Shown here piece by piece: positions 6,231 through 58,176 of a stretch of 64,000 nt of DNA. The stretch lies in NCBI GenBank assembly GCA_043228905.1, contig JBHGNT010000015.1, positions 5,952,001 to 6,016,000 on the forward strand, written 5' to 3'. Every line of letters starts with the position of its first letter. Position 1 is the stretch's first letter. The position numbers were made by a program, and so were the translations under genes. The DNA comes from Azolla caroliniana. Its lineage: Eukaryota > Plantae > Polypodiophyta. Below the pieces are notes generated by a model that was given only the letters and a program-made list of their open reading frames with translations, was not told the origin of the DNA and ran no database searches.

Positions 6231-8717
6231 CCGTTGGCATTATACTTCACCTTATATACCCACTTACAACCGATCGGTTTACATTGGTGGGGAGGGTCAA
6301 CCAGGTCCCATGTGTTGTTGGCATTGAGAGGCCGCATTTCTTCCTCCATAGCGGCACGGTAGTGCACGTCTTTCGTCTCTTCCGTGTAGCTTTCTGGCTC
6401 ACGCACTTTCACCACTTTCGTCATGTACGCATACTAATACACCATGTACTCATTATATCCATTACTTTTGACGGGGTTCGTCTAGCGGGTCGATTGGCGT
6501 AACTTTGTGTTCGCCAATTGCAAGGCCCTCTTGGCCGACTCAGACTTCATTCCCAAAGGTCCGTCTTCGTTCCATCCAAAGTCGAATTCACTCCGATCTG
6601 ACTTGTCTCTACCGGTGGCGTATTCTGACATCTTCTTCTTCCCCTTTTTCTTGCGTGTGAACCGTTTCCTCGGTTCCTTAAACGGGGAGAGCACAATTGA
6701 GTCTTTGTTGCACGCCGGCTCATCATCTTGTTGGTCCTTGCCACTCAGCGCTTCATTCGGCCCGCTCAGCTGAAATGAGATCGGACTCTCATCTAGAGTA
6801 CCGAAGTCTTCTTCTTCTTCTACCCGGATCATTTCGGGCTCACTGGCCCCATCCTCGTGGGCTAACACCTTATCCCCAATTTGGTTTTGGATGTAGACAA
6901 CTGCCTTGACTGCCTCAACCCAGTAGAATTTGGGCATGCTTTTCTCTGCAAGCATTGCCCTTGTCATCTCGACAATTGACCGACTGGTTCTTCCTTTTGG
7001 CCACACCGTTTTGTTCTGGTGTGTATCTGCAATTGAATTCTCTCCGAATTCCATTTGTTGCAGGTAACTGTTGAATTGACCAGAAAAATATTCTTTTCCA
7101 CCATCCGACCGTAGGCACTTGATCTTCCTCTCCATTTCCCGTTCAACGAGACTTTGCAGGTTCCGGAAATAGTCGAAGACTTCGCTTTCTTCTCGATGAG
7201 GTAGATCCACGTGTGCCGGTTGTAGTTGTCGATGAAAGGGACGAAATATTAGCTCTCGCCAAGACTAACGTTTTGTGTCGGTCCCCATATATCCGAACGT
7301 ATTAGATCGATCTTGTTACGGCTCCGGTTTCATTTGGTGGGGAATGGAAGCCGGCGGTGCTTCCCAAGCTTGCATGCTTCACAAATTTGGGCCTTTCGGC
7401 CAGTAAATTTCGGCAATCCGAAAACAACTTGTTTCAATTGCAAGTCCTGAAGCCTCATGTAGTTGACGTGGTCGATCTGCTTGTGGCACAGGTCAATATC
7501 CGATTCGACCTTCTATCCTTTTGCGAACATAGCGGTGCCTACGTCGTTGGTGTCGAAGATAAACATCCTCCCGTCCCAGCACCCTTGCGCAATTATCCGG
7601 CCCTCTTCCTCAATGAAGCACTTAAGGTGCGTAAACTCCACTTGCATCCTCTGGTCAACAATCTGCCCCACTGACACCAGGTTCTTTGTGATTGTCAGAA
7701 CATGTAGTACGTTCATAAGCTTTCCCTTTTGTCCGATATGGCTTAAAGGGAGTTCTCCGACATGCACAATCGGGCGAGGAGTGTCATCTCCGATTTCGAC
7801 AACTCTAGGTTGCTCTGGCTTTTCCAGAAATGAGAACCACTCTTTGTGGCTCATCATGTGGTTAGATGCTCCGGAGTCAACATACCATACTTCCTCCGAT
7901 CCGGAAGTGGTCTTCTTCATTGAGTTCGCCTTGTGCTTCATCACGAAGGTTGGCCCTTGTCCGGTCTTTCCGGTTCAGGATCCTTCCCATCCTTCGGTGT
8001 AGTGTGAGCATTGCAAGTTCCCCTGTCCAACCTTGCCAAATTCGGATTTTTCCGAATCGGCACGCTTCTTCCAGCACTCGCTTTTTAGGTGGCCTTTCTT
8101 GTCACAATACCAGCATTCCCTGTTGGCCTTTCCTTGCTAGTTTTCGGCGCCGCTTTGACTTCCTCTACTAGTGGAGGGTTCAGAACTACCGTCGGCACTA
8201 TCTTTGTGCCTCCAATTCTGCTCTTGTCGGCCACCTGCATTGCGTGCTGATCCACCTCATCTTCCATGCCCACGGGGCCGATCCACCTCTGTGTATAGCA
8301 TCTGGCTGTCCGATTGAGTGGTCCTTGACCCACTCGCGTGGTTTTCTTCGACCATGAGCATCAATTGCAGGTCAAAGAAGGACAGTGGTTTCTCCCGGGT
8401 GCAAATCGATGTCCGGATTGGCCCATACCGTTGTTCTAGACCACCAAGGAAGATCTGGACCATCTTGTCCTCATCCACCATCACGTTGATGGAACCGGGT
8501 GCGTCGCAGATCTCCTTAATCTTGGTGGTGTAGTCGGTCACCGACATGTCCCGTTGCCAAATACTATTGAGCTCTTTCCGGAGTTGCAACTTCAAAGCCG
8601 TGGTACTTGCCGCGAAAATCTTCTAGAGATTTTCCCAGGCCTCCTTCGGTGACTTTGCGTCTTTGATGCAGCCTAGCATTTGGTCGTGCAGGACGCGAAG
8701 CAATATAGCACTCTGCT
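6231..8717 (-). mobile_element. Ty1/Copia fragment E (gag, protease, integrase, start of RT), decayed; same family as F
   Basis: LQLRKELNSI gag, WYVDSGASNHM protease, LRSDGGKEY integrase, [14 protein letters not shown]; cut by element 1 on one side and element B on the other. Confidence 0.9.
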
Positions 8718-9152
8718 TGTCATTAATACATAAACATCATGACTTCACATGGGCTTGAACTCAAGACCTTGTAATACATAATCAAGAACCCAACCATTAA
8801 GATAGCCTATGTTCATATGGATGATAAAAGCTACTTCTTGTAATACATTGATTATTGTAATTACTCTAAAACATTCTAGAACATTCTAGAATATCCTAGA
8901 ACATCTTAGAATATCCTAGAACATCTTAGAATATTCTAGGTCTAGAACATTATAGAAATCTCTAGCCTGTTCTATACATGTATTCTCAAATCAATTCGAA
9001 TCAACACCAGTCTTAAGCTCTCATTGCCTATCTTGTATCCATTCTCATTCTACTTTAATACATTCATTCTTCTCTTATCATTTCATTTCTCTCTTCTTGT
9101 GATCTCTTTATATCTTTCTTCTTTCACTCTATCTTTTGTCTTGGTTCTGATA
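8718..9152 (+). repeat. 5' LTR of element B (3' boundary approximate)
   Basis: First ~180 nt align with 21149-21330. Confidence 0.75.
8871..8950. promoter_or_regulatory. Heat-shock-element-like 10-bp tandem array in LTR B
   Basis: TTCTAGAACATTCTAGAA (perfect alternating nTTCn/nGAAn) followed by degenerate 10-bp units; repeated at 21303-21329. Confidence 0.7.
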
Positions 9153-10155
9153 GTTTGATTCGAGTTTCTCTCTCTCCTTTATCCTCCTCTATAAACATCA
9201 CAAAACCATGACTACCATCAACTCAGAAGAATATCTCACCCTTGTTGTTGAAATGGAGAATCTTAAATCGAAGTTCGCATCTCTTGAATTAGAGAATCAA
9301 CGTCTTCTTGGAGATCTACAAAAGGTTACTGTGGAGACGCAACAACAACAAGAGGAGTTTACGTGACAGGTGCAACAACTAGAGTCAACGATTGTAATTT
9401 TACAAAAACAAAGGGGCTAAGGTCAAGGAATTATCAAGGAGCCCAAAATCAGCCTCCCCGGTAAATTTGATGGTTCGAGGGCGCATTTTCGAGGTTTCTT
9501 GAATCAAGTGCGGTTGGTAATTCAAATGCATCCCACACGTTATCCAACAGATGCATCTCGAGTCGGGTTAGTGGGCACCTTATTGAATGGCATAACGTTG
9601 TCGTGGTTTGCTCCATTATTAGAGACAAATTCTCCTCTACTCCATAATTTCGAGGAATTTGTCAAAGAATTTAAGCCTTGCTTTGGAGATACAGATGGGG
9701 CAAGAACAACGATCAACAAGATTCATACACTACATCAAGGTGATCATCTAGCATTGACATATGCAGCCAATTTTCTTCTCATCACAAGCGATATTCCATG
9801 GGATGAACAAGCCCTAATGGAGCAGTTTCATTCCGGTCTTCATAGCGATGTAAAAGACTTACTTCCTACATTCCCCGATGATCCAAAATCTCTTATAAAA
9901 GCTATTAGTCGAGCAATACGGTGCGATAATCTTCTTTTTGAGCATCGATGTGAACGACAACAAAAAATAACAAGATCAAGATTCACACCAACTTATGCAT
10001 CAGTAATGGCGCAGTCATCTCCAAGGCAAACATATAGCCCTGCTCCAACTCCAAGGCAACCACGTAGTCCAGCCCCAATGGATAGGCCTACACCCATGGA
10101 GATCGATATGACCCAACGACGATGACTGTTGTTGGATGAAGAGAAACAACGACGT

Positions 10156-10997
10156 TGTCGTAGTGTAGGTTGCACACTATGTGGAAATTATATTTTTGTC
10201 CCTCCGGATAAAGAATGGAGTGCTCGGTGAGAACCGGAAGAAAACGGCATACCGGCAAGGAGGAAAACGGCATACCGGCAAGGAGGAAAAACGGCATACC
10301 GGCAAGGAGGAAAACGGCATACCGGCAAGGAAGAGCCGGATAAAGAGACATAAATGTAAAAAAAAAAGAAAGAAATACTCACTACTGCGCAGGGCGTGAT
10401 TCAAACCCTGCACCTCCACGTTGACAAACCCCAACCTTACCATTACATTAACTTATCTTAAGTGTTTTAAATATAGATTTAATAAGTATAAGACCTTTAT
10501 TTATGCATACCTTTATTAAAAGGTAAATCGTGTATTTTTTTAATATATGAAAAAGAAAAACGCGAGACACTAAAAATAACTCATGCACATCTAGCGTGCA
10601 TGAGCCCTATACTTAGGAAATAAAAAAGCATCACATGCACATTTTAGTGGACATGAACACTTTTTGTAAAAAAAAAAAAAAAGCATGAAGCCATGCTTAG
10701 CTCTTCTTTCCTTATATAAGAAGGAGAGAAATATGTAAAGGGTTGTTGATTATTGGGATTAAGGATTAATTAATACAAAAATTATTCGTGGGATTCACGA
10801 TTTATACATCTACTTCTCTCTTAACACCCTAAGTACCAATTAATATAGTATACTAGTGTGATTCACGAGTTTCTTATCTTTCTCTTTGCTATTTACTCAT
10901 AATTACTCTCTATCTCACGAACTTCTTTTCTCCTAGTCCAAGACCTCTGTGGTTCCCACCCGACTCACGCAACGATCCGGAGCCGAAAGGCACGACA
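10156..10997 (+). repeat. A1 5' LTR (842 bp; 4 copies of a 23-24 bp repeat)
   Basis: Near-identical to 16665-17530. Confidence 0.97.
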
Positions 10998-11001
10998 CAG
11001 T

Positions 11002-11019
11002 TGGTGAACCCGACGTGAA
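11002..11019 (+). promoter_or_regulatory. Primer-binding site, tRNA-Trp
   Basis: TGGTGAACCCGACGTGAA complements the 3' end of plant cytosolic tRNA-Trp as I recall it (..UUCACGUCGGGUUCACCA). Confidence 0.85.
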
Positions 11020-11035
11020 GACGGGTGGCAAGGAG

Positions 11036-13075
11036 ATGGAGGCTCAACAAGCTAACAATATGATGGCGATGTTCGAACGGATGCTTCAAGAACAACGCAC
11101 GATGTCGGAGATTTCGGCATCAGTAGAGCGGCTCGTGCAACGCAACGGGCAATTTAATGGTAAGGATGTGTCGCGATATTTGCAGGACTACAAGGCGGAG
11201 ATGCTCCGGTGCCGGGCTTCGGAAGGACTGCAAGTGACATCCTTTAACCGGGTGGCGACCGACGGGCTTCAAGGGAGTATCCACGGGTTGCAACAACAAA
11301 ATCCGACGTGGGAAGCATTCGAGGAGGCGTTAAAGACCACGTTTGCCATCGAGGACTCCTCCAAGGCAACGCGGAGGGGATTCGAGGATTGGGTGGAAAC
11401 GTCAGGTAAGGGGTTGAAGGTCCTCGAAGTGTTTTCGACATTCGAAAGTCGGTTCGGGAGGCTGTCCGCGAGAGATCAAACTATTCTTGCGCCGGACAAA
11501 GTCATCATGTTTTTGCGAGCTGTGGACGTCCGGGACCGGAAAGATCTCGGAGTGCTTCTTGAGGACACGACCACCGAAAGCGGCCTCACCGAAACATGGG
11601 AAAGCGTGCGGGATATCGTCGCGCGGTACACGAAGAGGGGGCAATGGCTTGCCAACGAAGAAAAGAGGGTTTCGGAACCGATTCCGAAACCGAGAACGGG
11701 ACTGGAAGACCATCAACCGAGGGCTCGGGAGATTACGGCCGAGAAGGGAGTCGACGCGTCTACGGTGGAGCAGCTGCTGAAGGAGATGGAGAATCTAAAG
11801 ATCGCGATCGTGAAGAAGTCGGATGACCGCCCCACAAGCTCCAAATATACGGATCGACGGTGCATATGGTGCGATAGCGCCGAACACGATCGGAGGGATT
11901 GCGACGACCATAAGGAGGCGCTACGACGGGATCTCATCTACTACGAGGGAAACCGGATTCATTCGATGGACTCTCGGAAGCCACTCCGACCGAACTTCCG
12001 GAAAGGCGGCATGAAGAAGGTGCTCGAGGAGGAGTTAGCGGCAAGAAGCAACTATGCGACAACCGCGGGAATATGTGTCGGGGAGTCATCGGGAGCGAAG
12101 GCGTCTTTCTGGCCGGAGGTGCTAGGAAACACCGAGAAAACCGACTCCAACGATATCCGAAACACCGCGGAAGGCGTCCGGGAAGCTACGGGATGGGAAT
12201 GCCCTGTCGATAAGAATAGCATATACGCCCTGTGTCAATTACATGAGGTGTATGTGGACGAGAAACGACGGCGCACGGAGGATGCGGCCGGACCATCGAA
12301 GATACCGGAAAGCTGGAACTCCGGAGGTAAGGGAAAAGAAAAGGCGACTCCGGCATTCAAGCTCGCCTCGGACATAGAACAACAAACCGACTTGAAAAGA
12401 GTGTTCGAGGAAAGAATCTTGGATAGCCGGGTAGATTTTTCGCTGCGGGAACTACTCGGAATAGCGAAGAAGGAGTTTCACGATCTTCTCGTGGATCTCG
12501 TAAAAAGGAAGAGACAAAGTACGGAGGAAAATGCTCCAAGGGTGAATGCAAATACCGTTTCAATGAACGACACCGAAGTGGAAGGCGAAATTCCGAACTC
12601 CCACTATACAAGGCCACACTGGGCACGTGCGACTACGGAGACTCCGGTCTGAATCGGCAACATCAAAGAACCCGTGCTAGCATTGATTGATCACGGATCG
12701 GAGATCAACTTGATGTCCAAGGAGTTCTACCGAAAGGGGAAGTGGCCTATAAACACCAACCATGGATGGAAGATTCGGGCAGCCACGAAAACGACAGAAG
12801 ACCTATTTGCGGCTTGTCCGGATGTGACGGTAAAGATCGGGGATGTCGAAATTGACCAAAATTTCTTTGTGCAGGATGAGGTTTCACATTCTGTCATCCT
12901 CGGCCAACCCTTTATCACGGCTTCACGGATGGAGACGAAGGTGCTCGATAGTGGTGCGGCTTTTGCGCGAATTCGGAGCCAAAACGGAGGGAAATCCGTC
13001 CAATTCCTAACGGTGCCGGCAAACCACGAAAGGAACAAGAGGGAACTCTTGTCCCAAGTGAGAATGGATTTTTAA
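11036..13075 (+). CDS. A1 gag-protease ORF with an in-frame TGA at 12650-12652
   Basis: First ATG after the PBS; CX2CX4HX4C knuckle (CIWCDSAEHDRRDC); protease motif ALIDHGSEIN in the same frame after the stop. Confidence 0.88.
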
Positions 13076-13129
13076 AGCGGACTGTTGCGGAGTGGGGAAG
13101 TGATAGTCCGAGAAGCCCTGATACCCCAT
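13066..13129 (+). promoter_or_regulatory. -1 programmed ribosomal frameshift signal (G GAT TTT + H-type pseudoknot)
   Basis: Slippery heptamer before TAA; stem 1 13078-13088/13100-13110; stem 2 13092-13097/13124-13129; -1 frame open into pol. Confidence 0.85.
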
Positions 13130-16100
13130 ACAGGAAGAAAACTCTCGGAGCAAAACAAGTACGAATCGGCCCGGATGGGGCATCTACGTACACGGCCGTA
13201 ACCGGAGGAATGAAGAAACAATACCGACAAGTGGAGGATAAGTTACGGTCGGCATCAATAATAAAAGAAGACGAAGAAATCGTGGGAGTGATCGAGGAAG
13301 TGTTCTATGGGAATACACTACAACGGCTTGAAGAGCTTGCGGAAGATAAAAGCCAAGGGAACCGGGTAGTCCCGGTGGAATCGGTCGAGATGTACGAGAT
13401 CGTTGCGAAAATGGGGCCGGATGCGCTCCGCAAAGAAGAAGCAATGGTAAGTACGAAATACAAGACCGTGGAGAAGAAGGTGAAACCGGCCGTGGGACCA
13501 CTACCCGCCGATAGCGAACAAAAGAAGAAAGAAGTCTCGGGAGATCCGACACTTCGGAAGTCCGTGGATATCGGACATGCCTTCACGGATGAGACCCGGA
13601 AGAAACTTCGGATCGGTGGAGGTGGGTTCCTATTACAGAAAGAAGAGGAACGGTTTCGCGAGATGTTGGAGCAACACGGCAAAGCGTTTGCATTTACATC
13701 AAGGGAGATAGGGTGCGTCGATCCGAGAATAGTGGAGCCGATGGTGATCTTTACGATTGACCATGTACCGTGGAATCTGAAGCCGATTCCGGTGCCACGG
13801 GCGCATATTCCGAAAGTCATCGACTTGCTCAAGGAGAAGGTGGCGATGGGGATTCTAGAGCCATCAAGTGCTCCGTACTCAAATCGATGGTTTACGGTTC
13901 CGAAGAAGAATGGGTCACTCCGATTTATCCAAGACTTGCAACCGGTGAATAAGGTCACGATCCGGAACTCGGGAGTCGGTCCGATAGTGGACGAATTTGC
14001 GGAAGCTTTTGCCGGACGTGCGATATACTCCATCGGGGACCTATACTCGGGGTATGACCAATTCCAACTAGCCGTGGAGAGCCGAGACATCACTACCATG
14101 CGGACACCGATAGGACTAGTTCGAATGTGCACACTACCACAAGGAGCGACAAACTCGGTTGCTCATATGATGAACGCGATGAACAAGGTGCTTCGAGATT
14201 GCATCCCGGAGATAACGATGCCGTTTCTAGATGACATTCCGATGAAAGGATGCGCGGTGGAAGAAAAAGATGAGACTATGGATGATTGGGGATGCCGAAA
14301 GTTCGTGGTCGACCATATTCATGATTGCGAGAAAGTGTTGCGAAAGCTAGAAGATGTGCACCTAACACTTTCCGGGGAGAAATCGGCATTCGGGCAAGAA
14401 GAAATATTGGTGGTCGGACATCTATGTGGACCCTACGGCCGAAGACCGTCACCAACAAAGATCGATGCGATTCAAGCTATGAAGGAAGTATGTGAGTCAA
14501 CATCGGAAGTCCGAAGGTTTCTGGGTGCGTGTGCATTCTATCACATATGGATTCCGCACTATGCACATATAGCGGACCCGCTCTATCACTTGTTGCGGAA
14601 AGGTAAGAAATTCGAGTGGAAACCGGAACACACTAAAGCCATGAGGAAGCTCAAGAAGACACTATGGAGGGCGGAATCACTTAAGAAGCCAAGCTACGAG
14701 CGGCCAATCATAGTAACGGTTGATACAAGTCCAACCGGTATCGGGTGGGTCATCAATCAAGCCGACTCGGATGGTTCGCGGTATCCGATCCGATTTGGAG
14801 CAAAGGTCCTCAACGAAAGGCAACGCGGATATGCACAAGTCAAAAGAGAATTGTGGGGAGTCGTGTCGGCGATAAAATCGGATCGGGATTATTTGATCGG
14901 AGCTGAAGTGGTGATCGAGACGGATTGTCTTCCGATACTCGGGATGATGCGGTGTTGTACGATACCGGATGTGGCTATGCTAAGGTGGATTGCATATGTC
15001 AAGTCACTTAATCCGGAGGTTCGACACATCTCGGGGAAGGACAACGCGGTAGCGGACATGTTATCGAGGGCGCGGTTTGAAGATGACATAACCGAATCAG
15101 ATAATGAAGAAGTTTCCGAAGACTACTTCACGTCAGAACACATATGCCGAGTGAACGTGATCCGAGAATTCCGGGAAGAAGAATACGAGGGGGAAACCTT
15201 GATGATCGGGAAGATGCTACAAGAGGTCGAGGATTCAACCAATGATAAAGGAAGGAGAGCCGAGATCCGAAGGAAGAAGAGGCAAGTCCAAAAGTTCTTC
15301 TTGGAAAACGGTTTAATATGGAGGACGCCGAAAAGACCGGATGGGATACCACTTCGAGTAGTCGGGACGAAAGAGCAACGAAACCGGATAATGTCCGAGT
15401 TCCACGAATCCGATTGGGCTGGACATCGAGGAACATGGGCAACTTTTGTGAAAATCAAGCAAAGGTATTGGTCGAAGAACATGTATAAAGATGTCGCGGA
15501 GTTCACAGAAAGCTGCGAGAAATGTCAAGTCTACTCCGGGGTCCGACACCGAGATGAGCTGCATCCGACATTCTCACCGACAATCAACTTCAAGTGGATG
15601 GTCGACATTGTAGCTATGCCGACCGGGATTGGACAAAAGAAATACTTGGTGTTAGCTCGAGAAGATCTCACAAACCAAGTTGAAGGTCGAGCGCTTCGGA
15701 GGAAAACGTGTGCCGCGGTGTGCCAATTTCTTTTGGAAGAAGTGTTTTGTAGGTACGGCTGCGTAGGACAAGTGATTGCGGACCGGGGAGAACTCGACTC
15801 GGACAAAGCTAGGGGATTCTTCGCCAAACATGGAGTTCGGTTAACGTTGACAACGGCCTACAATCCGGAGGCCAACGGGAAGATCGAACGAGGACATAGT
15901 CCGATCGTGAAAGCACTTGCGAAGGCATGCGACGGAAGGGTGAAGGATTGGCCACAAATGCTTCCGTATGCACTATGGGCGGATCGGACGACGCATAGCT
16001 CCGTGACCGGTTATATGCCGGCAGAACTCATGACCGGACAAGCACCGGTAATGCCAACGGAAACCGCAATCGCAACATGGACAATACTACCGTGGAAGGA

Positions 16101-16677
16101 AGAGATGAGCCGGGAAGAACTACTAGCGGTCCGGATACGACAACTGGAGGGAAGACCGAAAGATGTAGCGGAAGCGTCACGCCGACAACAAGAAGCACGG
16201 TTCCGGAACAAAAGCCGGTTCGACACAAAGCACCGACTACGACCGAGGAGGATTGAAGAAGGAGATTGGGTGATCGTCTATGATAGTAGCTTGGACCATC
16301 AACATACAACGATGCGGAAATTCGCGAAAAGGTGGTTCGGGCCGTACGAGGTTCGGAAGGTCTTCGACAACGGGACGTACCGACTGTCCGAGTTGGATGG
16401 AACAATACTACGAGTGCCTATAGCCGGGAAGCGGGTGAAGATTTTCAAGAAGCGGACCGACGACAAACCTTATGTGATCCAAGTCGAGGCCGACAACGAG
16501 GAGCAATCGGACGAAGACCACAATGATGCGGGAAGCGAAGAAAGTGGATTACAACTCATAGTCGACATAAGGGAAGAATCGGAGGAAGCTTCGGATGAAG
16601 ACGGATACGAGGAATCAAGAACTTCGGCACATACCGGAGGATGTGCGGGTTTGGAGGGGGCGAGTGTCGTAGTGTAG
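13066..16677 (+). CDS. A1 pol (RT, RNase H, integrase), uninterrupted
   Basis: LPQGATNS..FLDD RT, VDTS RNase H, GHRG..CEKCQ and YNPEANGKIER integrase; acidic tail, no chromodomain. Confidence 0.95.
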   Translation, partial: GFLKRTVAEWGSDSPRSPDTPYRKKTLGAKQVRIGPDGASTYTAVTGGMKKQYRQVEDKLRSASIIKEDEEIVGVIEEVFYGNTLQRLEELAEDKSQGNRVVPVESVEMYEIVAKMGPDALRKEEAMVSTKYKTVEKKVKPAVGPLPADSEQKKKEVSGDPTLRKSVDIGHAFTDETRKKLRIGGGGFLLQKEEERFREMLEQHGKAFAFTSREIGCVDPRIVEPMVIFTIDHVPWNLKPIPVPRAHIPKVIDLLKEKVAMGILEPSSAPYSNRWFTVPKKNGSLRFIQDLQPVNKVTIRNSGVGPIVDEFAEAFAGRAIYSIGDLYSGYDQFQLAVESRDITTMRTPIGLVRMCTLPQGATNSVAHMMNAMNKVLRDCIPEITMPFLDDIPMKGCAVEEKDETMDDWGCRKFVVDHIHDCEKVLRKLEDVHLTLSGEKSAFGQEEILVVGHLCGPYGRRPSPTKIDAIQAMKEVCESTSEVRRFLGACAFYHIWIPHYAHIADPLYHLLRKGKKFEWKPEHTKAMRKLKKTLWRAESLKKPSYERPIIVTVDTSPTGIGWVINQADSDGSRYPIRFGAKVLNERQRGYAQVKRELWGVVSAIKSDRDYLIGAEVVIETDCLPILGMMRCCTIPDVAMLRWIAYVKSLNPEVRHISGKDNAVADMLSRARFEDDITESDNEEVSEDYFTSEHICRVNVIREFREEEYEGETLMIGKMLQEVEDSTNDKGRRAEIRRKKRQVQKFFLENGLIWRTPKRPDGIPLRVVGTKEQRNRIMSEFHESDWAGHRGTWATFVKIKQRYWSKNMYKDVAEFTESCEKCQVYSGVRHRDELHPTFSPTINFKWMVDIVAMPTGIGQKKYLVLAREDLTNQVEGRALRRKTCAAVCQFLLEEVFCRYGCVGQVIADRGELDSDKARGFFAKHGVRLTLTTAYNPEANGKIERGHSPIVKALAKACDGRVKDWPQMLPYALWADRTTHSSVTGYMPAELMTGQAPVMPTETAIATWTILPWKEEMSREELLAVRIRQLEGRPKDVAEASRRQQEARFRNKSRFDTKHRLRPRRIEEGDWVIVYDSSLDHQHTTMRKFAKRWFGPYEVRKVFDNGTYRLSELDGTILRVPIAGKRVKIFKKRTDDKPYVIQVEADNEEQSDEDHNDAGSEESGLQLIVDIREESEEASDEDGYEESRTSAHTGGCAGLEGASVVV

Positions 16678-17530
16678 GTTGCACACTATGTGGAAATTAT
16701 ATTTTTGTCCCTCCGGATAAAGAATGGAGTGCTCGGTGAGAACCGGAAGAAAACGGCATACCGGCAAGGAGGAAAAACGGCATACCGGCAAGGAGGAAAA
16801 CGGCATACCGGCAAGGAGGAAAAACGGCATACCGGCAAGGAGGAAAACGGCATACCGGCAAGGAAGAGCCGGATAAAGAGACATAAATGTAAAAAAAAAA
16901 GAAAGAAATACTCACTACTGCGCAGGGCGTGATTCGAACCCTGCACCTCCATGTTGACAAACCCCAACCTTACCATTACATTAACTTATCTTAAGTGTTT
17001 TAAATATAGATTTAATAAGTATAAGACCTTTATTTATGCATACCTTTATTAAAAGGTAAATCGTGTATTTTTTTAATATATGAAAAAGAAAAACGCGAGA
17101 CACTAAAAATAACTCATGCACATCTAGCGTGCATGAGCCCTATACTTAGGAAATAAAAAAGCATCACATGCACATTTTAGTGGACATGAACACTTTTTGT
17201 AAAAAAAAAAAAAAAGCATGAAGCCATGCTTAGCTCTTCTTTCCTTATATAAGAAGGAGAGAAATATGTAAAGGGTTGTTAATTATTGGGATTAAGGATT
17301 AATTAATACAAAAATTATTCGTGGGATTCACGATTTATACATCTACTTCTCTCTTAACACCCTAAGTACCAATTAATATAGTATACTAGTGTGATTCACG
17401 AGTTTCTTATCTTTCTCTTTGCTATTTACTCATAATTACTCTCTATCTCACGAACTTCTTTTCTCCTAGTCCAAGACCTCTGTGGTTCCCACCCGACTCA
17501 CGCAACGATCCGGAGCCGAAAGGCACGACA
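16665..17530 (+). repeat. A1 3' LTR (866 bp; 5 repeat copies)
   Basis: Matches the 5' LTR apart from about 3 transitions and one repeat unit. Confidence 0.97.
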
Positions 17531-17740
17531 ACGTCGAGCAAACCGTCTGTGCTTATATTGTGTAGGTCCAGGACATACGACCATTCATTGCTCCTATAGG
17601 CCAAGACATCATCATGTAAATCAAATTCACTATGACAATAAAACTGAGTCCAACATTTTGGAAGCACTTACTGATCCTAATATTATGAATAATCCACCCT
17701 TGTCCAATAATTTTGAAGTCCTAACCCAATTAGAAGAGGA

Positions 17741-26039: not shown

Positions 26040-27879
26040 GAAGATACCAAAAGAGATCTCTCTGATGGCTGCAACTACCAAATTTTGCGAAATTGGCCGA
26101 TTCTTCTTCATTGTCGGCAAAATTTGGCGAATTCCTTCGATCTGAACTCTTACCCATTATCAGTCCAAAGACATTTTAGTTTTTGACCTAACTGATTTTC
26201 GACCATGGCGAGCCATTCAGAAAAGATCGAGAATGCTCGATCTTTAGTTGTGGCCGAATAGGCCCACACCTTTTGAGTTGAATCATCGATGAAGCTGAAG
26301 AAATACAAGGCACCACCAAGTGACTGATGTGGCATCAGGCCACAGACGTTCGAATGGACCAAGTCAGGAGGGCTCGACACTCATGGTGTTGCCGTCAGGT
26401 GTGAGGGTGCGGTTTGTTTGCCGTATTGCCAATGCTCACAAAACTGATGGTCAGAGAAGGCGAGTTTGGGGATATATCTGGCTCTGGATAAATAAGTGAT
26501 GTCAGCCTTGCTGAGGTGTTTGAGCTGTCTGTGCCATAGCGACGACACAAGGATGTCTACCAGAAATAGGTCACCTTCTCTGAGTGTGACATACAGTGGG
26601 TACAATGAATACACCTTCGGACCTCGAGCAAGGAGGATGCTCCCCTTGTGGAGTGTCCACCCTCCCAATGAGAAGCTCGCACGGATGTCGTCTTCGTCAA
26701 GTTTTCTGACCGAAATCACCGGTCTTGATATCTCAGGTACATGTCGAACATTATGTAGTACTAATGTAGAGCCACCTAGAAGGTTGAGCTCTATAGTGCC
26801 GATTCCCACTATCATGTAGTGATGCAAATTTGTGACTCAGACTGAATCATAATTCCGGTCCGAATATTGCCAAAATTGGGATTGATGAGGCGTCACATGG
26901 TAGGATGCACCCGAATCCAAGAGCCATGTGATCGATTCCTCCGTCATAAGCAGAACTTCTTATTCAATTGAGTGTTCTATGAATAGAATGTTTGCGTCAT
27001 CAATACTTCGACTGAAGAGTCGATGTAGTTGACCTCTTCATGCCAGCTACCGTTCTGATCAACTCACTGAGTTTTATCATTCTTGGCTTTGAGGACAGGG
27101 AAATCAATTTTGATATGTTCAGGTTTCTTGCAATAATTGTAGGTTCGATTATCCCAGGACTTGCTTCGGCTTCACGTATTAGTCGGTGGTCGGGAAGAGC
27201 TTCTTCCTTGACAATTCGGTTGGATCCACTAAACCTTGTACTACGTAGGCGTCGTTGGTTGAATCATTTACAAACGATTTCCTCCGAGCTGCTTCAGTCA
27301 AGATCGAGCTTGTGACTTTGGCGTACCTTATTGCAGTAGTCAATGCATTGCATACAGTTGTGATGAAAGTTTCCCATGAAGGGGGGAGACTACTCATTAG
27401 CAACACCGCTTTTAATTCGTCTTCCATTGTCATCCCTTGCATCAAAATTTGAGAGCTTAGGCTTTTGTACTCGTTGATGTGTGCCTCGACTGAGTCAGAT
27501 TCTTTCATCTGAAGGTTGTAGAGGCACTGGATCAGGTACATCTTTGTTGCGGTGACCTTCTTTTAGCAAGTGTCTGAAATTGTCTTCAATAGATGGAAGG
27601 CAGTTGAACATGATTGCACTATAAAGTACACTAACACCAACGAGTGCATCCAAATGGTGGCCTAGACAATTCAATCTAACTTTGTCCACTCATTCAGCTT
27701 GTATTCTTTTGGATGATTTTCGAATTTGATCGAATCTATCTGACCTTTGACGATAAGATAGTCTTGCATTTGTTCCTTCTAGAAGTTGAAGTTCGACCCA
27801 TCAAACTTCCATAGGCTCATTCTGGATGAGCCAAATGTTAACGCCATTCTATGTTGGTTGGGAAGGCTCTATCTGGAGT
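26040..27879 (-). mobile_element. Ty1/Copia element G: gag-protease-integrase remnant
   Basis: LLMSSLPPSWE gag, WLLDSGASYH protease (~26900), LVHSNVCG..FIDD integrase; continues beyond insertion F at 40901. Confidence 0.85.
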
Positions 27880-30800: not shown

Positions 30801-31614
30801 CGAAACGGTTCACCCGCAAAGAGAAGGGAAAGAAGAAGATGCCGGAATTCGAAACCGGCAATGAGGAGTCGGATCAGTGTGCATCCAACTCCGGCAAGGA
30901 GAAAGGCGGATCTTCGGCAACGAAAACCGAACCGGCCAAGAAGGGCCTCAAACCGGGTAACGGTGAGTTACGTTGTTCCACCCGTCAAGCGGTATGGGTA
31001 CAATGAGTACATGGCGCATCACTATGCGTACATGACTAAGGTGGCGGAAGTGCGTGAGCCGGAGAGCTACGCTGTCGTGCCTTTCGGCTCCGGATCGTTG
31101 CGTGAGTCGGGTGGGAACCACAGAGGTCTTGGACTAGGAGAAAAGAAGTTCGTGAGATAGAGAGTAATTATGAGTAAATAGCAAAGAGAAAGATAAGAAA
31201 CTCGTGAATCACACTAGTATACTATATTAATTGGTACTTAGGGTGTTAAGAGAGAAGTAGATGTATAAATCGTGAATCCCACGAATAATTTTTGTATTAA
31301 TTAATCCTTAATCCCAATAATCAACAACCCTTTACATATTTCTCTCCTTCTTATATAAGGAAAGAAGAGCTAAGCATGGCTTCATGCTTTTTTTTTTTTT
31401 TTTTACAAAAAGTGTTCATGTCCACTAAAATGTGCATGTGATGCTTTTTTATTTCCTAAGTATAGGGCTCATGCACGCTAGATGTGCATGAGTTATTTTT
31501 AGTGTCTCGCGTTTTTCTTTTTCATATATTAAAAAAATACACGATTTACCTTTTAATAAAGGTATGCATAAATAAAGGTCTTATACTTATTAAATCTATA
31601 TTTAAAACACTTAA

Positions 31615-31711
31615 GATAAGTTAATGTAATGGTAAGGTTGGGGTTTGTCAACGTGGAGGTGCAGGGTTCGAATCACGCCCTGCGCAGTAGTGAGTATTTC
31701 TTTCTTTTTTT
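31615..31711 (+). ncRNA. tRNA-like Pol III module in family A LTR, antisense to the element (present in all four A LTRs)
   Basis: A-box-like TAATGTAATGG 31622-31632, B-box GGTTCGAATC 31665-31674 at tRNA spacing, T7 run ending 31711; stems do not pair as a tRNA. Confidence 0.55.
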
Positions 31712-31880
31712 CTTACATTTATGTCTCTTTATCCGGCTCTTCCTTGCCGGTATGCCGTTTTCCTCCTTGCCGGTATGCCGTTTTTCCTCCTTGCCGGTAT
31801 GCCGTTTTCTTCCGGTTCTCACCGAGCACTCCATTCTTTATCCGGAGGGACAAAAATATAATTTCCACATAGTGTGCAAC

Positions 31881-35492: not shown

Positions 35493-37522
35493 ATTCTCAC
35501 TTGGGACAAGAGTTCCCTCTTGTTCCTTTCGTGGTTTGCCGGCACCGTTAGGAATTGGACGGATTTCCCTCCGTTTTGGCTCCGAATTCGCGCAAAAGCC
35601 GCACCACTATCGAGCACCTTCGTCTCCATCCGTGAAGCCGTGATAAAGGGTTGGCCGAGGATGACAGAATGTGAAACCTCATCCTGCACAAAGAAATTTT
35701 GGTCAATTTCGACATCCCCGATCTTTACCGTCACATCCGGACAAGCCGCAAATAGGTCTTCTGTCGTTTTCGTGGCTGCCCGAATCTTCCATCCATGGTT
35801 GGTGTTTATAGGCCACTTCCCCTTTCGGTAGAACTCCTTGGACATCAAGTTGATCTCCGATCCGTGATCAATCAATGCTAGCACGGGTTCTTTGATGTTG
35901 CCGATTCAGACCGGAGTCTCCGTAGTCGCACGTGCCCAGTGTGGCCTTGTATAGTGGGAGTTCGGAATTTCGCCTTCCACTTCGGTGTCGTTCATTGAAA
36001 CGGTATTTGCATTCACCCTTGGAGCATTTTCCTCCGTACTTTGTCTCTTCCTTTTTACGAGATCCACGAGAAGATCGTGAAACTCCTTCTTCGCTATTCC
36101 GAGTAGTTCCCGCAGCGAAAAATCTACCCGGCTATCCAAGATTCTTTCCTCGAACACTCTTTTCAAGTCGGTTTGTTGTTCTATGTCCGAGGCGAGCTTG
36201 AATGCCGGAGTCGCCTTTTCTTTTCCCTTACCTCCGGAGTTCCAGCTTTCCGGTATCTTCGATGGTCCGGCCGCATCCTCCGTGCGCCGTCGTTTCTCGT
36301 CCACATACACCTCATGTAATTGACACAGGGCGTATATGCTATTCTTATCGACAGGGCATTCCCATCCCGTAGCTTCCCGGACGCCTTCCGCGGTGTTTCG
36401 GATATCGTTGGAGTCGGTTTTCTCGGTGTTTCCTAGCACCTCCGGCCAGAAAGACGCCTTCGCTCCCGATGACTCCCCGACACATATTCCCGCGGTTGTC
36501 GCATAGTTGCTTCTTGCCGCTAACTCCTCCTCGAGCACCTTCTTCATGCCGCCTTTCCGGAAGTTCGGTCGGAGTGGCTTCCGAGAGTCCATCGAATGAA
36601 TCCGGTTTCCCTCGTAGTAGATGAGATCCCGTCGTAGCGCCTCCTTATGGTCGTCGCAATCCCTCCGATCGTGTTCGGCGCTATCGCACCATATGCACCG
36701 TCGATCCGTATATTTGGAGCTTGTGGGGCGGTCATCCGACTTCTTCACGATCGCGATCTTTAGATTCTCCATCTCCTTCAGCAGCTGCTCCACCGTAGAC
36801 GCGTCGACTCCCTTCTCGGCCGTAATCTCCCGAGCCCTCGGTTGATGGTCTTCCAGTCCCGTTCTCGGTTTCGGAATCGGTTCCGAAACCCTCTTTTCTT
36901 CGTTGGCAAGCCATTGCCCCCTCTTCGTGTACCGCGCGACGATATCCCGCACGCTTTCCCATGTTTCGGTGAGGCCGCTTTCGGTGGTCGTGTCCTCAAG
37001 AAGCACTCCGAGATCTTTCCGGTCCCGGACGTCCACAGCTCGCAAAAACATGATGACTTTGTCCGGCGCAAGAATAGTTTGATCTCTCGCGGACAGCCTC
37101 CCGAACCGACTTTCGAATGTCGAAAACACTTCGAGGACCTTCAACCCCTTACCTGACGTTTCCACCCAATCCTCGAATCCCCTCCGCGTTGCCTTGGAGG
37201 AGTCCTCGATGGCAAACGTGGTCTTTAACGCCTCCTCGAATGCTTCCCACGTCGGATTTTGTTGTTGCAACCCGTGGATACTCCCTTGAAGCCCGTCGGT
37301 CGCCACCCGGTTAAAGGATGTCACTTGCAGTCCTTCCGAAGCCCGGCACCGGAGCATCTCCGCCTTGTAGTCCTGCAAATATCGCGACACATCCTTACCA
37401 TTAAATTGCCCGTTGCGTTGCACGAGCCGCTCTACTGATGCCGAAATCTCCGACATCGTGCGTTGTTCTTGAAGCATCCGTTCGAACATCGCCATCATAT
37501 TGTTAGCTTGTTGAGCCTCCAT
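35483..37522 (-). CDS. A2 gag-protease ORF with in-frame TGA at 35906-35908
   Basis: Translation identical to A1, including the stop. Confidence 0.88.
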
Positions 37523-40500
37523 CTCCTTGCCACCCGTCTTCACGTCGGGTTCACCAACTGTGTCGTGCCTTTCGGCTCCGGATCGTTGCGTGAGTCGGGT
37601 GGGAACCACAGAGGTCTTGGACTAGGAGAAAAGAAGTTCGTGAGATAGAGAGTAATTATGAGTAAATAGCAAAGAGAAAGATAAGAAACTCGTGAATCAC
37701 ACTAGTATACTATATTAATTGGTACTTAGGGTGTTAAGAGAGAAGTAGATGTATAAATCGTGAATCCCACGAATAATTTTTGTATTAATTAATCCTTAAT
37801 CCCAATAATCAACAACCCTTTACATATTTCTCTCCTTCTTATATAAGGAAAGAAGAGCTAAGCATGGCTTCATGCTTTTTTTTTTTTTTTTTACAAAAAG
37901 TGTTCATGTCCACTAAAATGTGCATGTGATGCTTTTTTATTTCCTAAGTATAGGGCTCATGCACGCTAGATGTGCATGAGTTATTTTTAGTGTCTCGCGT
38001 TTTTCTTTTTCATATATTAAAAAAATACACGATTTACCTTTTAATAAAGGTATGCATAAATAAAGGTCTTATACTTATTAAATCTATATTTAAAACACTT
38101 AAGATAAGTTAATGTAATGGTAAGGTTGGGGTTTGTCAACGTGGAGGTGTAGGGTTCGAATCACGCCCTGCGCAGTAGTGAGTATTTCTTTCTTTTTTTC
38201 TTACATTTATGTCTCTTTATCCGGCTCTTCCTTGCCGGTATGCCGTTTTCCTCCTTGCCGGTATGCCGTTTTTCCTCCTTGCCGGTATGCCGTTTTCCTC
38301 CTTGCCGGTATGCCGTTTTTCCTCCTTGCCGGTATGCCGTTTTCTTCCGGTTCTCACCGAGCACTCCATTCTTTATCCGGAGGGACAAAAATATAATTTC
38401 CACATAGTGTGCAACCTACACTACGACAACGCAGAAGCAGCCAAGGACGCAAATTGGTGTGCCGCTATGGAGGAAGAAATGCGGGCACTTGATGTCAACA
38501 AGACATGGGACCTGGTTGACCCTCCTCGTCACTGTAAACCGATCGGATGCGAGTGGATATACAAGGTAAAGTACAATGTCGACGGTTCTGTTAACCGGTA
38601 TAAAACCCGGTTAGTGGCGAAGGGATACGCGCAGACCCACGGAATCGACTATGATGAGACCTTCGCTCCTGTAGGGAAGATGACGACGGTTCGAGTGGTG
38701 TTGGCGGTTGCTGCGGCAAGGGGATGGCATCTTCATCAGATGCATGTGAAGAATGCATTTCTTCAAGGTGATCTTGAAGAAGAAGTCTTTATGACTCAGC
38801 CTCCCGGTTTTCAATCGGAGATGAACAAGTCGGCAGTATGCCGACTGAAGAAGTCGTTGTACGGCCTAAAGCAAGCCCCATGAGCTTGGAATGCGAAGAT
38901 CACGCATCGGTTGCGTAAGATGGGGTTTGTGGCCTCCAAATCGGATCTTCATTGTTCATCCAACAAGGCTCACCCAATCCAGTATGTTGTATGTTGATGA
39001 TCTAGTCATCACCAGACCGGGTGTTCCAGAAATCAACCGCATCAAGACCCAATTGTCAGACGCATTTGAGATGAAGGATCTGGGGGACCTTCATTATTTT
39101 CTAGGGATTGAGGTGATCCGAACCTCGGACGGCATATTGCTCTCACAACGACATTACGTCTTGAGTATGTTGTACAAGTTCGGCATGACAGAATGTCGAC
39201 CTGTATCCACACCCTTGTACCGGAACAAGAAGCTTCGTCCCAACTCCGGATCGGCCTGCAATGAGCAACGTTTCTGACAAATTGTCGGAAGCCTTATTTA
39301 CTTGACTATCACGTGACCCGACATCAGCTATCCGGTCGGGATGATAAGTTAGTTCATGCAGAAGTCGACCATGGAGCACCTTCAGTGCGCGCACTATTAG
39401 TGGCACGAAGGACCGGGGACTGTTATACTGGTGAGGTATACCCAAAGAGCTTGTCGGTTACACGAATGCCGACTGGGCTGGCGATGCATCAGATCGTCGA
39501 TCAACCTCTGGTTACATGTTTTCCCTAGGTAGCGCGGCTGTTGCGTAGAGCAGCAAAAAGCAGCCAACAGTTGCTCTGTCGAGCACTGAGGCTAAGTATC
39601 GTGGTGCTACCCTTGCCACCTGTGAAGCCATTTGGCTTCGGCGACTACTGCGAGACTTGCGGATCGAGGTACCAACCCCGATCCCGATTTATTGTGATAA
39701 CATCAGCAGCATGCAGCTCGTGGTGTTCCACACTCGCACGAAGCACATAGAAGTGCATTATCACTTTGTGCGTGAGTGGGTCCTGAGCGGTGAAGTTGAA
39801 CTACGGTATGTTCACACGGATCGGCAAGTTGCCGATATCTTCACCAAGCCGCTCGGATCGGACAAGTTGCAGCACTTTGCCGACATGCTTGGTGTTCAGC
39901 ATCTCGACGTGCCGCACTTGAGGGGGAGAAGAAGGGGCAAAGACACCGTTGGAACGGGCAAAGGCAAAGAGACTGTTGCCGACACCGGTAAGGGAAGAAC
40001 CCGAAGAGGGGAAGACAAGGAGGCTGAAGAAGCTGAGGATGGAAGCAAGGCCAAGACACGGACGTGGTCTGATGTGGTGAAGGGCCTTAAACCGAAAGAC
40101 GAGTTGGAGGATACCGACTCGGACAAGAGCTGGAACGAATCGGGGACAGCCGATTCGGACCAACAGACGGATCCAGATGATTCAAATCAACTGGAGGCCA
40201 AGCAGACACGGATCCAACGAAAGTCAATGCCATCGCGGAGGAACCGATGGATCGATAAGTGTTGGAATCATAGTAGTGAAGGAGCTGAGAGGGGCCTATT
40301 GAGCAGACATACCGATCGAGAAGGTCGAGGCGCGCAGAACAAGAGGGGTCGCGGCAAACAGAACCGGACCGGACGAGGAGCGCGAGCAAGGCAGAGCGAC
40401 GCCACGAGAAGTCGGTTGGAAGAACCGACTACCACAGAGACTGGCACTAGGATCCAACCTCAAGTTGAGCTTGAGGGGGAGTGTTGAGTGGCAAGCTCAA

Positions 40501-45591: not shown

Positions 45592-46018
45592 CGGATCTTC
45601 AGTTCCGATAACTTTCTGCGTGAGAACTAAGCTTTGCAATCAAGCTGTAATTAACACGAATTCATGCTGTGAGCTAAGACATGGCAGTGATTATTAACTA
45701 GGGATTGATTAGCCTATGAATTGAGCAAATGTGGGGACTTAATCAAGGTGCAAGTTACCTGAAGGCTGTTGTGCTTTAAGTAAGCTTGATGGGATGTGAT
45801 TAAGCTTAATTATGCTCTGGTTGGGTAGTTAATCTCAGGTTAAATGTGCAAAATGAAGCCTAATTAGGAATGGAGATGGGGGGGTCACATTTATAGTTTT
45901 ATTAAATGGAGAGACTAGATTCTCAAAGTTTTAATAAGATTTCCAAAATACCCCTCCATTCTTTTCAGCCATGTCAATGTATGTGTGTTTGTATGTCTCT
46001 CTCTATACATGTGGTTTT

Positions 46019-47016: not shown

Positions 47017-47018
<2 letters not shown>

Positions 47019-47060: not shown

Positions 47061-47065
<5 letters not shown>

Positions 47066-49260: not shown

Positions 49261-49364
49261 TATATTGCCATGAAATTTAATTTTAAAAACCTTTTATTGA
49301 CCCTTCAACAATTGTGTATACATAATAATATTAAATTTCATGGCAATACAAAAAACCTTTTATT

Positions 49365-56092: not shown

Positions 56093-56112
56093 GAAGTGAG
56101 GTGGGACAAAAA

Positions 56113-58176
56113 TGTGATGGGGAAGTAGAGGTTGGTGATGAAAGTAGATGAAGAGATATGCAGAAGAATATGTATGAGGACCTGCCAGAGATGTGCAACA
56201 AACAACACAGATATAAAACAAGAAGAGAGACAGAAGATGAATGCAACTCTGAGCTTCAATAGAATTTATTATTCTCTTAGTCTGCAACTTTTACACTCCG
56301 AGCATATCTTTACAATGTAAGGTTTGAGCTTATATACTCAAGCCCTATATAGGGGACGTGTTCACACGACTAATACAAAGTGGAAGGAGTTGGCCTTTTA
56401 TGCCAACAAACTCCCCCATAAAAGGGCTACTCTTTCCTATGTATACAATTGATTTTTGGGTTATCTCCCCTGTAAACCTAGATTACAAATCTAATCTTAA
56501 GTTACAAGTATACATACAAGTTTGTCGGCATTCAGCCGAATTTGCAGAGGTAAAGTCAGGATCTAGCATGATTCGGCTAGCTTGTCTGAATCGGTCAAAT
56601 CGATTTGTTCGAATTGTCTTGCATCCAAATCGGCTCATTTGTCTGAGTTGGCTCATGTCTGATTCTGACTCTCGGCCTTGGGTCAATCGTCTGTTATCCA
56701 CTGAAGCTTGCTCCTGTGCTCTTTGCTGGATCCTCGATCTATCTTCAACTTTGTTTGTCCTTCGATCAGTTCCTCTCCAATCGGAATCCTCGATGAATGC
56801 TGAATCTTCGGCCTCTTGACACATCTAATTCTATGGACTTTGCTTTTTCAGTTTGTCCGATCGGGCCGGTCTTCGACTTTCCTTCTGCTCCTCGTTCGAC
56901 GCTTTTCTGCTCAATCGCTTGTCGTAACTCCATCTTTGTCCTCAATATTTCAAAGCATTGTTCTGGGAGTGACTTCGTCAAATCCGCGATTTTCACCTCA
57001 GTTTCAATATTTCGAACTTTGAGCTTCTTCTCTATTACAAGCTCGCAGATATATGATGGAATTGCACCTCAATGTGCTTCATCTTTGCATGATAGAATGG
57101 ATTTCTTATGAGATGTATTGTGCTCTAAGAGTCGCATTAGATGGTTGGCGCTGGCTTGTTGATTCGTCTTGTCACCGAGAAATCGGCAGACAATCGGTGC
57201 AGCCAGATGGCTTCCTTTGCAGCCTCTAATGCTGCTATGTACTCCACCTCTATGGTAGACAAGGTTGTGCACTCTTGAAGTTTCGACCCCCATGATATGG
57301 CGCCACTGCCATAAGTGAATATGTAGCCTGATGTCGACTTCTGATTGTCCATATTACCGGCATAGTCAGAGTCGGTATAGCCTTCGACTTCGGTCGGATT
57401 GGCCGATCTGAAAGTCAGTTGTACATCTTCGGTTCCTCTTAGATACCTGAAGATGTGCTTGATGGACTCCCAATGCTTTCGTCTTGGGTTCGACATGTAC
57501 TGGTAGACGACCCCTATGACACATGCAATGTCAATTCGGGTCACCACCATTGCGTACATGATACTTCCTATGGCCAATGCATAGGGTATCTTTCCATTGA
57601 GCTTTCTCTCCTCTTCCGTTGAGATTTCTCTCCTCTTCCGTTGAGGGAGAGTCTCTGTCCAATAGTCGGATTGACGTCTGAAGCAGGGTTGGTGTTGGCT
57701 TCACATTCTCCATGTTGAAGCACCTCAACGCCTTTTAGATGTAGTCAGATTGGGAAAGTCGGAGAGTCTTTGTCTTCTGATTTCGCTTGATCCCCATGCC
57801 CACTATGTGTCGAGCTTGTCCGAGTTCCTTCATCGTGAACTTGTCATGAACTTGTCATGAAGGCTCCTCTTTAGCTTTCCGATTTCGGCTTGATTACTCC
57901 CTGCAATCAACATCTCATCGACATATAGGATCAGATAGATCTGGAACTCATCGACTAGTTGCCGAACATACATGCATGGGTGGATTCAGACTGGTGGTAA
58001 CCAAGCTGCCTAATGTAGGAGTCGAACTTCTTGTACCACATCCTCGGCATTTGTTTTAAGCCGTAAAGGCTTTTCTTCAATCGACATACGAGGTGACCTT
58101 ACTCCCCCATCGCCGTGAAGCCTGATGGTTGAGACAAATAGATGTCTCCTTCCAAATCTCTGTGTAGGAATGTCGT
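56113..58176 (-). mobile_element. Copia I 3' half (RT, RNase H, long 3' extension, 3' LTR ~56113-56408)
   Basis: YVDE(M), IGSIMYAM, YTDSDYAG, PPT GGGGGAGTT followed by TGTTGG at 56408. Confidence 0.82.

What the first reader, a model, noticed from the sequence alone, without database searches (positions are those of the whole stretch)
6231..58176. All four TGTCG..CGACA-type Ty3 insertions abut N-C-G-T: apparent CpG-specific targeting with 4-bp TSDs
Seen, in element orientation: A1 TSD ACGT, A2 TSD GCGT, element 1 right flank CCGT (6231-6234), element C left flank TCGT (58173-58176). All four lie in coding regions of other retroelements. Copia F here has an ordinary 5-bp GGAGT TSD. Known: plant LTR elements usually make 5-bp TSDs with weak preference; CG-specific 4-bp targeting is known for Drosophila ZAM/Tirant. 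Inference: these chromodomain-less integrases may read (methyl)CpG to home into other TEs. Only two TSDs are confirmed at both ends, and n=4.
Basis: partly seen in the sequence, partly recalled or inferred. Interest (0 to 1): 0.78.

Follow-up and report, generated by a model that had tools for sequence, protein, structure and literature searches.

The report
CG-targeting Phygy-type plant retrotransposon
A plant jumping-gene family inserts almost only at CG dinucleotides and duplicates four bases, a habit already described for the moss Phygy group that it likely belongs to; one of the four flagged copies is an unrelated element, and the family's lean towards other transposons likely follows from where CGs lie, not from reading methylation.

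Summary
CG targeting is real but already known. A1 (10156-17530, TSD ACGT) and A2 (31073-38428, TSD GCGT) belong to a family in which 1060 of about 1126 outer LTR ends in the genome are followed by N-C-G (94%; background CG 3%). Most exceptions are later CG-to-TG/CA decay. The motif narrows to VCGB. A 4-bp NCGN TSD, a tRNA-Trp primer site and no chromodomain are the published traits of the Phygy clade (Neumann 2019). Tree membership could not be tested. 'All four' fails: element 1 is another lineage, with a 5-bp TSD (CCGTT) and no CG preference (6 of 109). Element C has no second end here. The methyl-CpG homing idea gets no support, but methylation itself was not measured. Family sites lie in repeats 80% of the time, against 66% for random VCGB sites and 79% for the non-CG element-1 family; CG is concentrated in TE-rich DNA. 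Likely mechanism: a 4-bp-stagger integrase bends the target at a central CG and reads those bases. New here: a host other than Physcomitrium, n>1000 and the VCGB refinement. Earlier scan notes on other DNA of this genome already named Phygy as closest family.

The parts
10152..10155 (+). A1 left TSD ACGT
10156..10997 (+). A1 5' LTR (842 bp, TGTCG..CGACA)
   Evidence: 3 substitutions against the 3' LTR
11002..11019 (+). A1 primer-binding site complementary to the tRNA-Trp 3' end
   Evidence: pattern with the PBS finds 63 genomic places; 4 of 4 fetched are tRNA-Trp(CCA) genes
10937..12652 (+). A1 gag-like frame (stop to stop); weak DUF4100 hit, E 3.5e-5, below the curated cutoff
12952..16677 (+). 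A1 pol frame: RT, RNase H, H2C2, rve, weak SH3, acidic tail; no chromodomain, methyl-binding domain or archaeal RNase H hit
16653..16664 (+). A1 polypurine tract
16665..17530 (+). A1 3' LTR (866 bp)
17531..17534 (+). A1 right TSD ACGT
31069..31072 (-). A2 right TSD, GCGT in element orientation
31073..38428 (-). A2, near-identical sister of A1 (6 substitutions in 5667 internal bases), inside the copia element at 27880-40895
38429..38432 (-). A2 left TSD, GCGT in element orientation
5842..6230 (+). Element 1 3' LTR (389 bp, starts TGTTG); a different Ty3 lineage, pol about 25% identical to A
6231..6235 (+). Element 1 right TSD CCGTT (5 bp; left copy before G000:C15:5948191)
58173..58176 (+). TCGT left of element C; TSD not confirmable
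58177..60064 (+). Element C: older, truncated relative of A (LTR, Trp-type PBS near 58971, gag 29-37% identical to A gag); no pol or 3' LTR found
27875..27879 (+). Copia host of A2, left 5-bp TSD GGAGT (right copy 40896-40900)

Best explanation
Family A is a chromodomain-less Ty3/gypsy retrotransposon, likely of the Phygy clade, that inserts at V-C-G-B with a 4-bp duplication; its integrase likely selects the CG by bending the target there and reading the bases, and its bias towards other transposons likely arises because CGs are concentrated in TE-rich DNA and insertions there survive. Shown: TSD length and motif, tRNA-Trp PBS, domain content, uneven CG distribution, equal repeat bias in a non-CG family. 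Inferred: bending plus direct base read-out by integrase; selection or general heterochromatin bias as the source of the remaining repeat excess; post-insertion methylation as the source of the TG/CA exceptions.
For: Of 1951 family LTR ends, 1060 are followed by NCG, 33 by NCH (30 NCA), 33 by NK (30 NT; 14 of 14 fetched are NTG). The other 825 have A at position 2: 666 match the PBS pattern, 9 of 9 others fetched are PBS variants, and 97 of the 100 listed NAH hits begin CA or TA like the PBS spacer. TCG is 26 of 1060 and NCGA 21 of 1060, against 33% each in background. 41 of 48 two-ended copies have a perfect 4-bp TSD and the other 7 differ by one transition; none fits 5 or 6 bp. In 17 of 20 resolvable exceptions the left copy still reads CG. 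Phygy is described as 4 bp (100%) NCGN with tRNA-Trp PBS in 81%. 4-bp-TSD retroviruses bend a central YR step and disfavour T and A at the TSD edges; PFV consensus VYRB (PMC4422553). Flank CpG density equals that of random VCGB sites (p 0.35). Retroelement-like flanks: 51-55% against 52%. Repeat fraction 52 of 65 against 27 of 34 for the non-CG family (Fisher p 1.0).
Against: Sites are somewhat more repeat-bound than random VCGB sites: 52 of 65 against 66% (region bootstrap 56-74%, P about 0.03). With a larger library biased towards family-A neighbourhoods, non-repeat flanks are 4 of 65 against 100 of 400. No methylome was available, so a preference for methylated CG is not excluded. No P. patens Phygy sequence was available for a tree. 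Full copies (7.25-7.44 kb) are slightly below the published 7656-9968 bp. No integrase residue was shown to read CG.
Confidence: 0.78

Rival explanations
1. The integrase prefers methylated CG and so uses the host's silencing mark to land in other transposons.
For: Repeat excess over random VCGB sites (80% against 66%; 6% against 25% non-repeat). The target CGs decay by transitions (about 60 TG/CA against 3 NCT and at most 1 NG transversion), showing methylation at least after insertion. A 1992 title on CpG methylation affecting retroviral integration in vitro appears in a reference list (paper not held).
Against: The non-CG element-1 family shows the same repeat bias. About 10% of sites lie in CpG-poor DNA, against 15% of random VCGB sites. 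No methyl-binding or chromodomain family hit in 22 relatives. Strict palindromic CG-containing targets also occur in Drosophila errantiviruses (CGCG), whose host has little CpG methylation (recalled).
Confidence: 0.12
2. CG is read as sequence, but a separate tether (integrase acidic tail or a host factor) also steers insertion to heterochromatin.
For: Residual repeat excess. Phygy nested in Tcn1 in P. patens (PMC6911290) and enriched at liverwort centromeres (PMC12885004). Conserved-looking acidic C-terminal tail in A pol.
Against: Assembled genomes show insertions after selection, and an unrelated family gives the same excess.
Confidence: 0.08
3. The pattern is an artefact: the CG belongs to the element end or comes from a few duplicated segments.
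For: A1 and A2 share CGT on both sides, so their alignment extends 3-4 bases past the LTRs.
Against: Internal LTR ends are followed by the PBS and preceded by the PPT, not by NCGN. Flanks differ between copies, and the 4 bases occur once in uninterrupted paralogs.
Confidence: 0.01

Closest known systems
Phygy clade, non-chromovirus Ty3/gypsy (Neumann et al. 2019, PMC6317226; passages and supplementary file 3 read)
   Same: 4-bp NCGN TSD, tRNA-Trp PBS, no extra domain, short internal region filled by gag-pol.
   Different: Described there as specific to Physcomitrella patens; this host is another land plant (its xyloglucan xylosyltransferase is 57-59% identical to P. patens proteins). Copies are 7.25-7.44 kb. 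The motif here narrows to VCGB. Tree placement untested.
Ginger1 DNA transposons (Bao et al. 2010, PMC2836005; passages read)
   Same: Gypsy-type integrase, TGTNR termini, 4-bp TSD with central CG (CCGG 75%, CCGT/ACGG 24%).
   Different: Cut-and-paste DNA transposons of animals with TIRs; CCGG dominates, whereas ACGT dominates here.
Prototype foamy virus and other 4-bp-TSD retroviral intasomes (Serrao et al. 2015, PMC4422553; passages read)
   Same: 4-bp stagger, central YR step, T and A disfavoured at TSD edges (VYRB). PFV integrase is the best solved-structure match (E 5e-17).
   Different: Their preference is weak and accepts any YR; here only CG is used. Family A has Glu at the position aligned with PFV Ala188.
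Drosophila errantiviruses of the gypsy, ZAM and Idefix subgroups (PMC5408687; passages read)
   Same: Sequence-specific palindromic 4-base targets, one of them CGCG.
   Different: In CGCG the central step is GC, not CG; insect elements of another lineage.
TatI (Neumann et al. 2019, supplementary file 3)
   Same: 4-bp TSD and tRNA-Trp PBS.
   Different: TatI carries an archaeal RNase H; none was detected here, and no NCGN preference is listed for it.

Membership tests
Phygy (family A) | 4-bp TSD | tested here: met
   41 of 48 perfect, 7 one transition away, none 5 or 6 bp; 4-bp overlap on 20 of 20 paralogs for A2
Phygy (family A) | NCGN insertion preference | tested here: met
   1060 of about 1126 outer ends; at least 1060 of 1285 if all 159 variant-PBS ends are counted as outer
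Phygy (family A) | PBS for tRNA-Trp | tested here: met
Phygy (family A) | No chromodomain and no archaeal RNase H | tested here: met
   No such Pfam hit in A pol or in 22 of 22 aligned relatives; absence by Pfam only
Phygy (family A) | Short element, gag-pol spanning nearly all of the internal region, no extra ORF | tested here: met
   Internal region 10998-16664; frames 10937-12652 and 12952-16677
Phygy (family A) | Length 7656-9968 bp | tested here: inconclusive
   Most full copies 7250-7441 bp, just under the range, which comes from one species
Phygy (family A) | Groups with P. patens Phygy in RT/RH/INT trees | not testable with these tools
   No P. patens-named hit among the 120 listed of 213 pol relatives, in 10 clusters or 24 gag relatives; named relatives are from Riccia and Adiantum
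Phygy (element 1) | 4-bp NCGN TSD | tested here: not met
   5-bp CCGTT; 5-bp TSDs in other copies; CG in 6 of 109
Phygy (element C) | 4-bp NCGN TSD and tRNA-Trp PBS | tested here: inconclusive
   Only the left end exists; Trp-type PBS with mismatches; most relatives have NCGN or its TG/CA decay at the 5' flank
TatI | Archaeal RNase H domain | tested here: not met
Selgy | PBS for tRNA-Ala | tested here: not met
   PBS is Trp (for Selgy)
Chromoviruses | C-terminal chromodomain | tested here: not met

The most novel reading that the evidence does not exclude
Phygy-type integrases read methylated CG directly, with no chromodomain or known methyl-binding domain, and so use the host's DNA-methylation mark as an address for landing in silenced transposons; this would be an integrase that reads DNA methylation in vivo.
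Probability: 0.12. Interest if true: 0.75.

Novelty: new member of a known kind. Interest (0 to 1): 0.27.

Why it matters
The core trait is in print. This genome adds a large (about 1100 outer LTR ends of one subfamily), very young family in a land plant other than Physcomitrium, with a sharper motif (VCGB) and relatives in liverwort and fern proteins, so strict CG targeting is probably an old, widespread non-seed-plant trait. Because CG is several-fold denser in TE-rich DNA here, a two-base sequence rule alone would steer insertions away from CG-poor DNA. The family is a good model for asking how an integrase turns a weak YR bias into a strict one, and whether methylation matters.

Tried and rejected
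Element 1 as a family member: rejected (5-bp TSD, other termini, about 25% pol identity, no CG preference). Finding C's other end: not found in 20 kb downstream or by genome search. Paralog test for A1: only one paralog, with an indel at the site (overlap 18), so uninformative. Extended motif outside the TSD: nothing strong in 43 sites beyond a mild A at -2 and T at +5. TG exclusion as a test of methyl reading: rejected as uninformative, since a symmetric reader of both G bases would exclude TG either way; TG on both sides was seen in 2 of 20 exceptions. A tree against P. patens Phygy: no reference sequence found. Conservation of candidate DNA-contact residues across relatives was not examined, so the Glu at the Ala188 position rests on one protein. 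Literature: 'NCGN' with 'retrotransposon' gave only Neumann 2019 as relevant; a fern/Gypsy/CG-target search gave 0 papers; a CpG/methylation/TSD search gave 3 papers, of which one was read in passages (GingerRoot, PMC6839031, 6-bp TSD, not relevant). PMC7466625 has no passage with 'target site' or 'methylat'. No folding, complex prediction or read mapping was done. Rows dropped: L104 (PBS variant), L106 95-bp parse, L113 (ambiguous end). L129 proved to be a PBS variant, and 9 of 30 exception loci had no resolvable left end.
Full report
Window and host. The window is G000:C15:5952001-6016000 in a 523-Mb assembly, a nest of copia, Ty3 and LINE sequence with one xyloglucan xylosyltransferase-like gene. 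That protein is 57-62% identical to named lycophyte, fern, moss, liverwort and seed-plant proteins, and 57-59% to P. patens proteins. The host is therefore a land plant other than P. patens. An earlier scan note suggests a fern; I did not test that further.

The four insertions. A1 (10156-17530, +) and A2 (31073-38428, -) are near-identical young copies: 3 and 1 substitutions between their LTRs, 6 in 5667 internal bases. Their TSDs are ACGT and GCGT. For A2, left and right flanks searched separately overlap by 4 bp on 20 of 20 paralogous host copies; for A1 the single paralog was uninformative. Element 1 does not belong. Its LTRs are 389 bp and start TGTTG, its 5' LTR upstream of the window is preceded by CCGTT, and its 3' LTR is followed by CCGTT. 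Flanks overlap by 5 bp on 17 of 17 paralogs, other copies have 5-bp TSDs, and its pol is about 25% identical to A pol. Of 224 LTR ends of that family, 115 face the PBS; of the other 109, 6 have CG at positions 2-3 and 4 have GC. Element C is an older truncated relative of A with a Trp-type PBS and related gag. Its 3' LTR was not found, but most relatives have NCGN or a TG/CA form at the 5' flank. The copia TSD GGAGT is as stated. A1 sits 30 bp past its host's gag stop rather than clearly in coding sequence.

Genome-wide motif. A 21-base LTR-end motif of family A occurs 1951 times. It is followed by NCG 1060 times, NCH 33 times (30 NCA, 3 NCT) and NK 33 times (30 NT). The other 825 have A at position 2: 666 match the PBS pattern, 9 of 9 others fetched are PBS variants, and 97 of the 100 listed NAH hits begin like the PBS spacer. 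So about 1060 of 1126 outer ends (94%, CI 92.6-95.4%) carry CG, against 3.0% CG in background DNA; the floor is 1060 of 1285. These counts cover only copies with the exact motif, so they favour young copies. Among 70 parsed two-ended copies I dropped 3 mis-parses. Of 48 not chosen as exceptions (39 from loci chosen for a right NCG flank, so they test TSD length only), 41 have a perfect 4-bp TSD and 7 differ by one transition. Of 30 exception loci fetched, 20 had both ends: 17 still read CG on the left, 2 read TG on both sides and 1 reads TG/CA. All 14 NT loci fetched are NTG. Exceptions are thus mostly decay after insertion, as expected of methylated CG (inference). T at position 1 (26 of 1060) and A at position 4 (21 of 1060) are rare against 33% each in background, giving VCGB. 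In 53 related metagenome contigs, 8 outer 3' ends could be read: 7 NCG and 1 NTG, two sharing one flank.

Does it home into TEs by reading methylation? Sixty evenly spaced background stretches of C1 and C2 fall into CG-poor DNA (observed/expected about 0.3-0.6, GC 35-39%) and CG-rich DNA (about 0.8-1.1, GC 42-56%). With those stretches as library, 52 of 65 right and 49 of 65 left family-A flanks hit a repeat. The figures are 155 of 400 for random positions, 264 of 400 for random VCGB sites and 27 of 34 for element-1 family flanks. Family A exceeds random VCGB modestly (bootstrap 56-74%, P about 0.03) but equals the non-CG family (p 1.0). Flank CpG density does not differ from random VCGB (p 0.35). 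Retroelement-like flanks by tblastx are 51-55% against 52%. With all fetched loci as library, which is biased towards family-A neighbourhoods, non-repeat flanks are 4 of 65 and 9 of 65, against 100 of 400 for VCGB and 2 of 34 for element 1. A residual avoidance of unique DNA therefore exists but is shared by an element with no CG rule, which fits selection or a general chromatin bias. Methylation before insertion could not be measured.

Mechanism. Pol carries RT, RNase H, H2C2, rve, a weak SH3 and an acidic tail. No chromodomain, methyl-binding domain or archaeal RNase H was hit in it or in 22 aligned relatives. The best solved relatives are PFV and Ty3 integrases. For retroviruses with 4-bp TSDs the target is sharply bent at a central YR step, and T and A are disfavoured at the TSD edges (PFV VYRB; PMC4422553, passages). 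VCGB is that pattern narrowed to CG. I infer bending at CG plus symmetric base read-out by the integrase. The Glu aligned with PFV Ala188 is a candidate contact seen in one protein only.

Known systems. Neumann et al. 2019 (PMC6317226; passages and supplementary file 3) state that Phygy elements prefer NCGN: 186 elements, 4 bp (100%), tRNA-Trp PBS 81%. Family A meets these traits, and its PBS matches genomic tRNA-Trp genes. Tree membership could not be tested because no P. patens sequence was retrieved; named relatives at about 60% identity are from Riccia, with one from Adiantum. Phygy is reported nested in Tcn1 in P. patens (PMC6911290, passages) and in a liverwort (PMC12885004, passages). 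Ginger1 transposons use CCGG/CCGT (PMC2836005, passages), and a Drosophila errantivirus subgroup uses CGCG (PMC5408687, passages). Searches found no paper on the mechanism, on methylation dependence or on ferns. The library lacks most subscription journals, and Neumann's element-level table was not held and may already show VCGB.

Verdict. A real and very strict target preference, already described for the lineage. One of the four examples is wrong and one cannot be confirmed. The methyl-reading idea is unsupported but not excluded (about 0.12). Novelty: new member of a known kind; interest 0.27.

Noticed in passing
window 5816-5841 and loci L035-L064: Element 1 has no polypurine tract; a conserved sequence ending in CCA, like a tRNA 3' end, sits two bases before its 3' LTR in most copies. 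Earlier scan notes describe this lineage as a dual-tRNA-primed candidate.
   Followed up: partly
L099, L107, L156, L169 (position 1) and L126, L131, L170 (position 4): TSD mismatches are side-specific: G-to-A at position 1 in the right copy and T against C at position 4 in the left copy, where the LTR's CA or TG end creates a CHG context. This likely records CHG methylation at element termini.
   Followed up: partly
L163: A family-A solo LTR is inserted in the ACGT inside the tRNA-Trp primer-binding site of another Phygy-type element.
   Followed up: no
L137, L139, L145, L155, L158, L161, L166, L171, L172: Many two-LTR copies are only 3.1-3.7 kb with intact TSDs, likely non-autonomous derivatives of family A; solo LTRs are also very common.
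   Followed up: no
family-A flanks: Element-1-like Ty3 sequence hosts 6 of 63 right and 7 of 64 left flanks, against 10 of 400 random VCGB sites; small numbers, several comparisons.
   Followed up: no
window 12652-12952 and 35606-35906: A1 and A2 share the same break between the gag and pol frames, so it predates both insertions or is a programmed recoding site.
   Followed up: no
G000:C8:17796786-17823371, C16:4989495-5105657, C5:10105608-10112201: Tandem clusters of tRNA-Trp-like 3' ends, spaced about 0.9-1.2 kb on C5 and C8.
   Followed up: no
window 44155-45639 and 48371-49276: A single-frame xyloglucan xylosyltransferase-like gene (GT34) and an AFT-domain frame lie inside the TE nest.
   Followed up: partly
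L175-L194, L199-L238: The genome splits into CG-depleted low-GC DNA and CG-rich repeat-dense DNA.
   Followed up: partly
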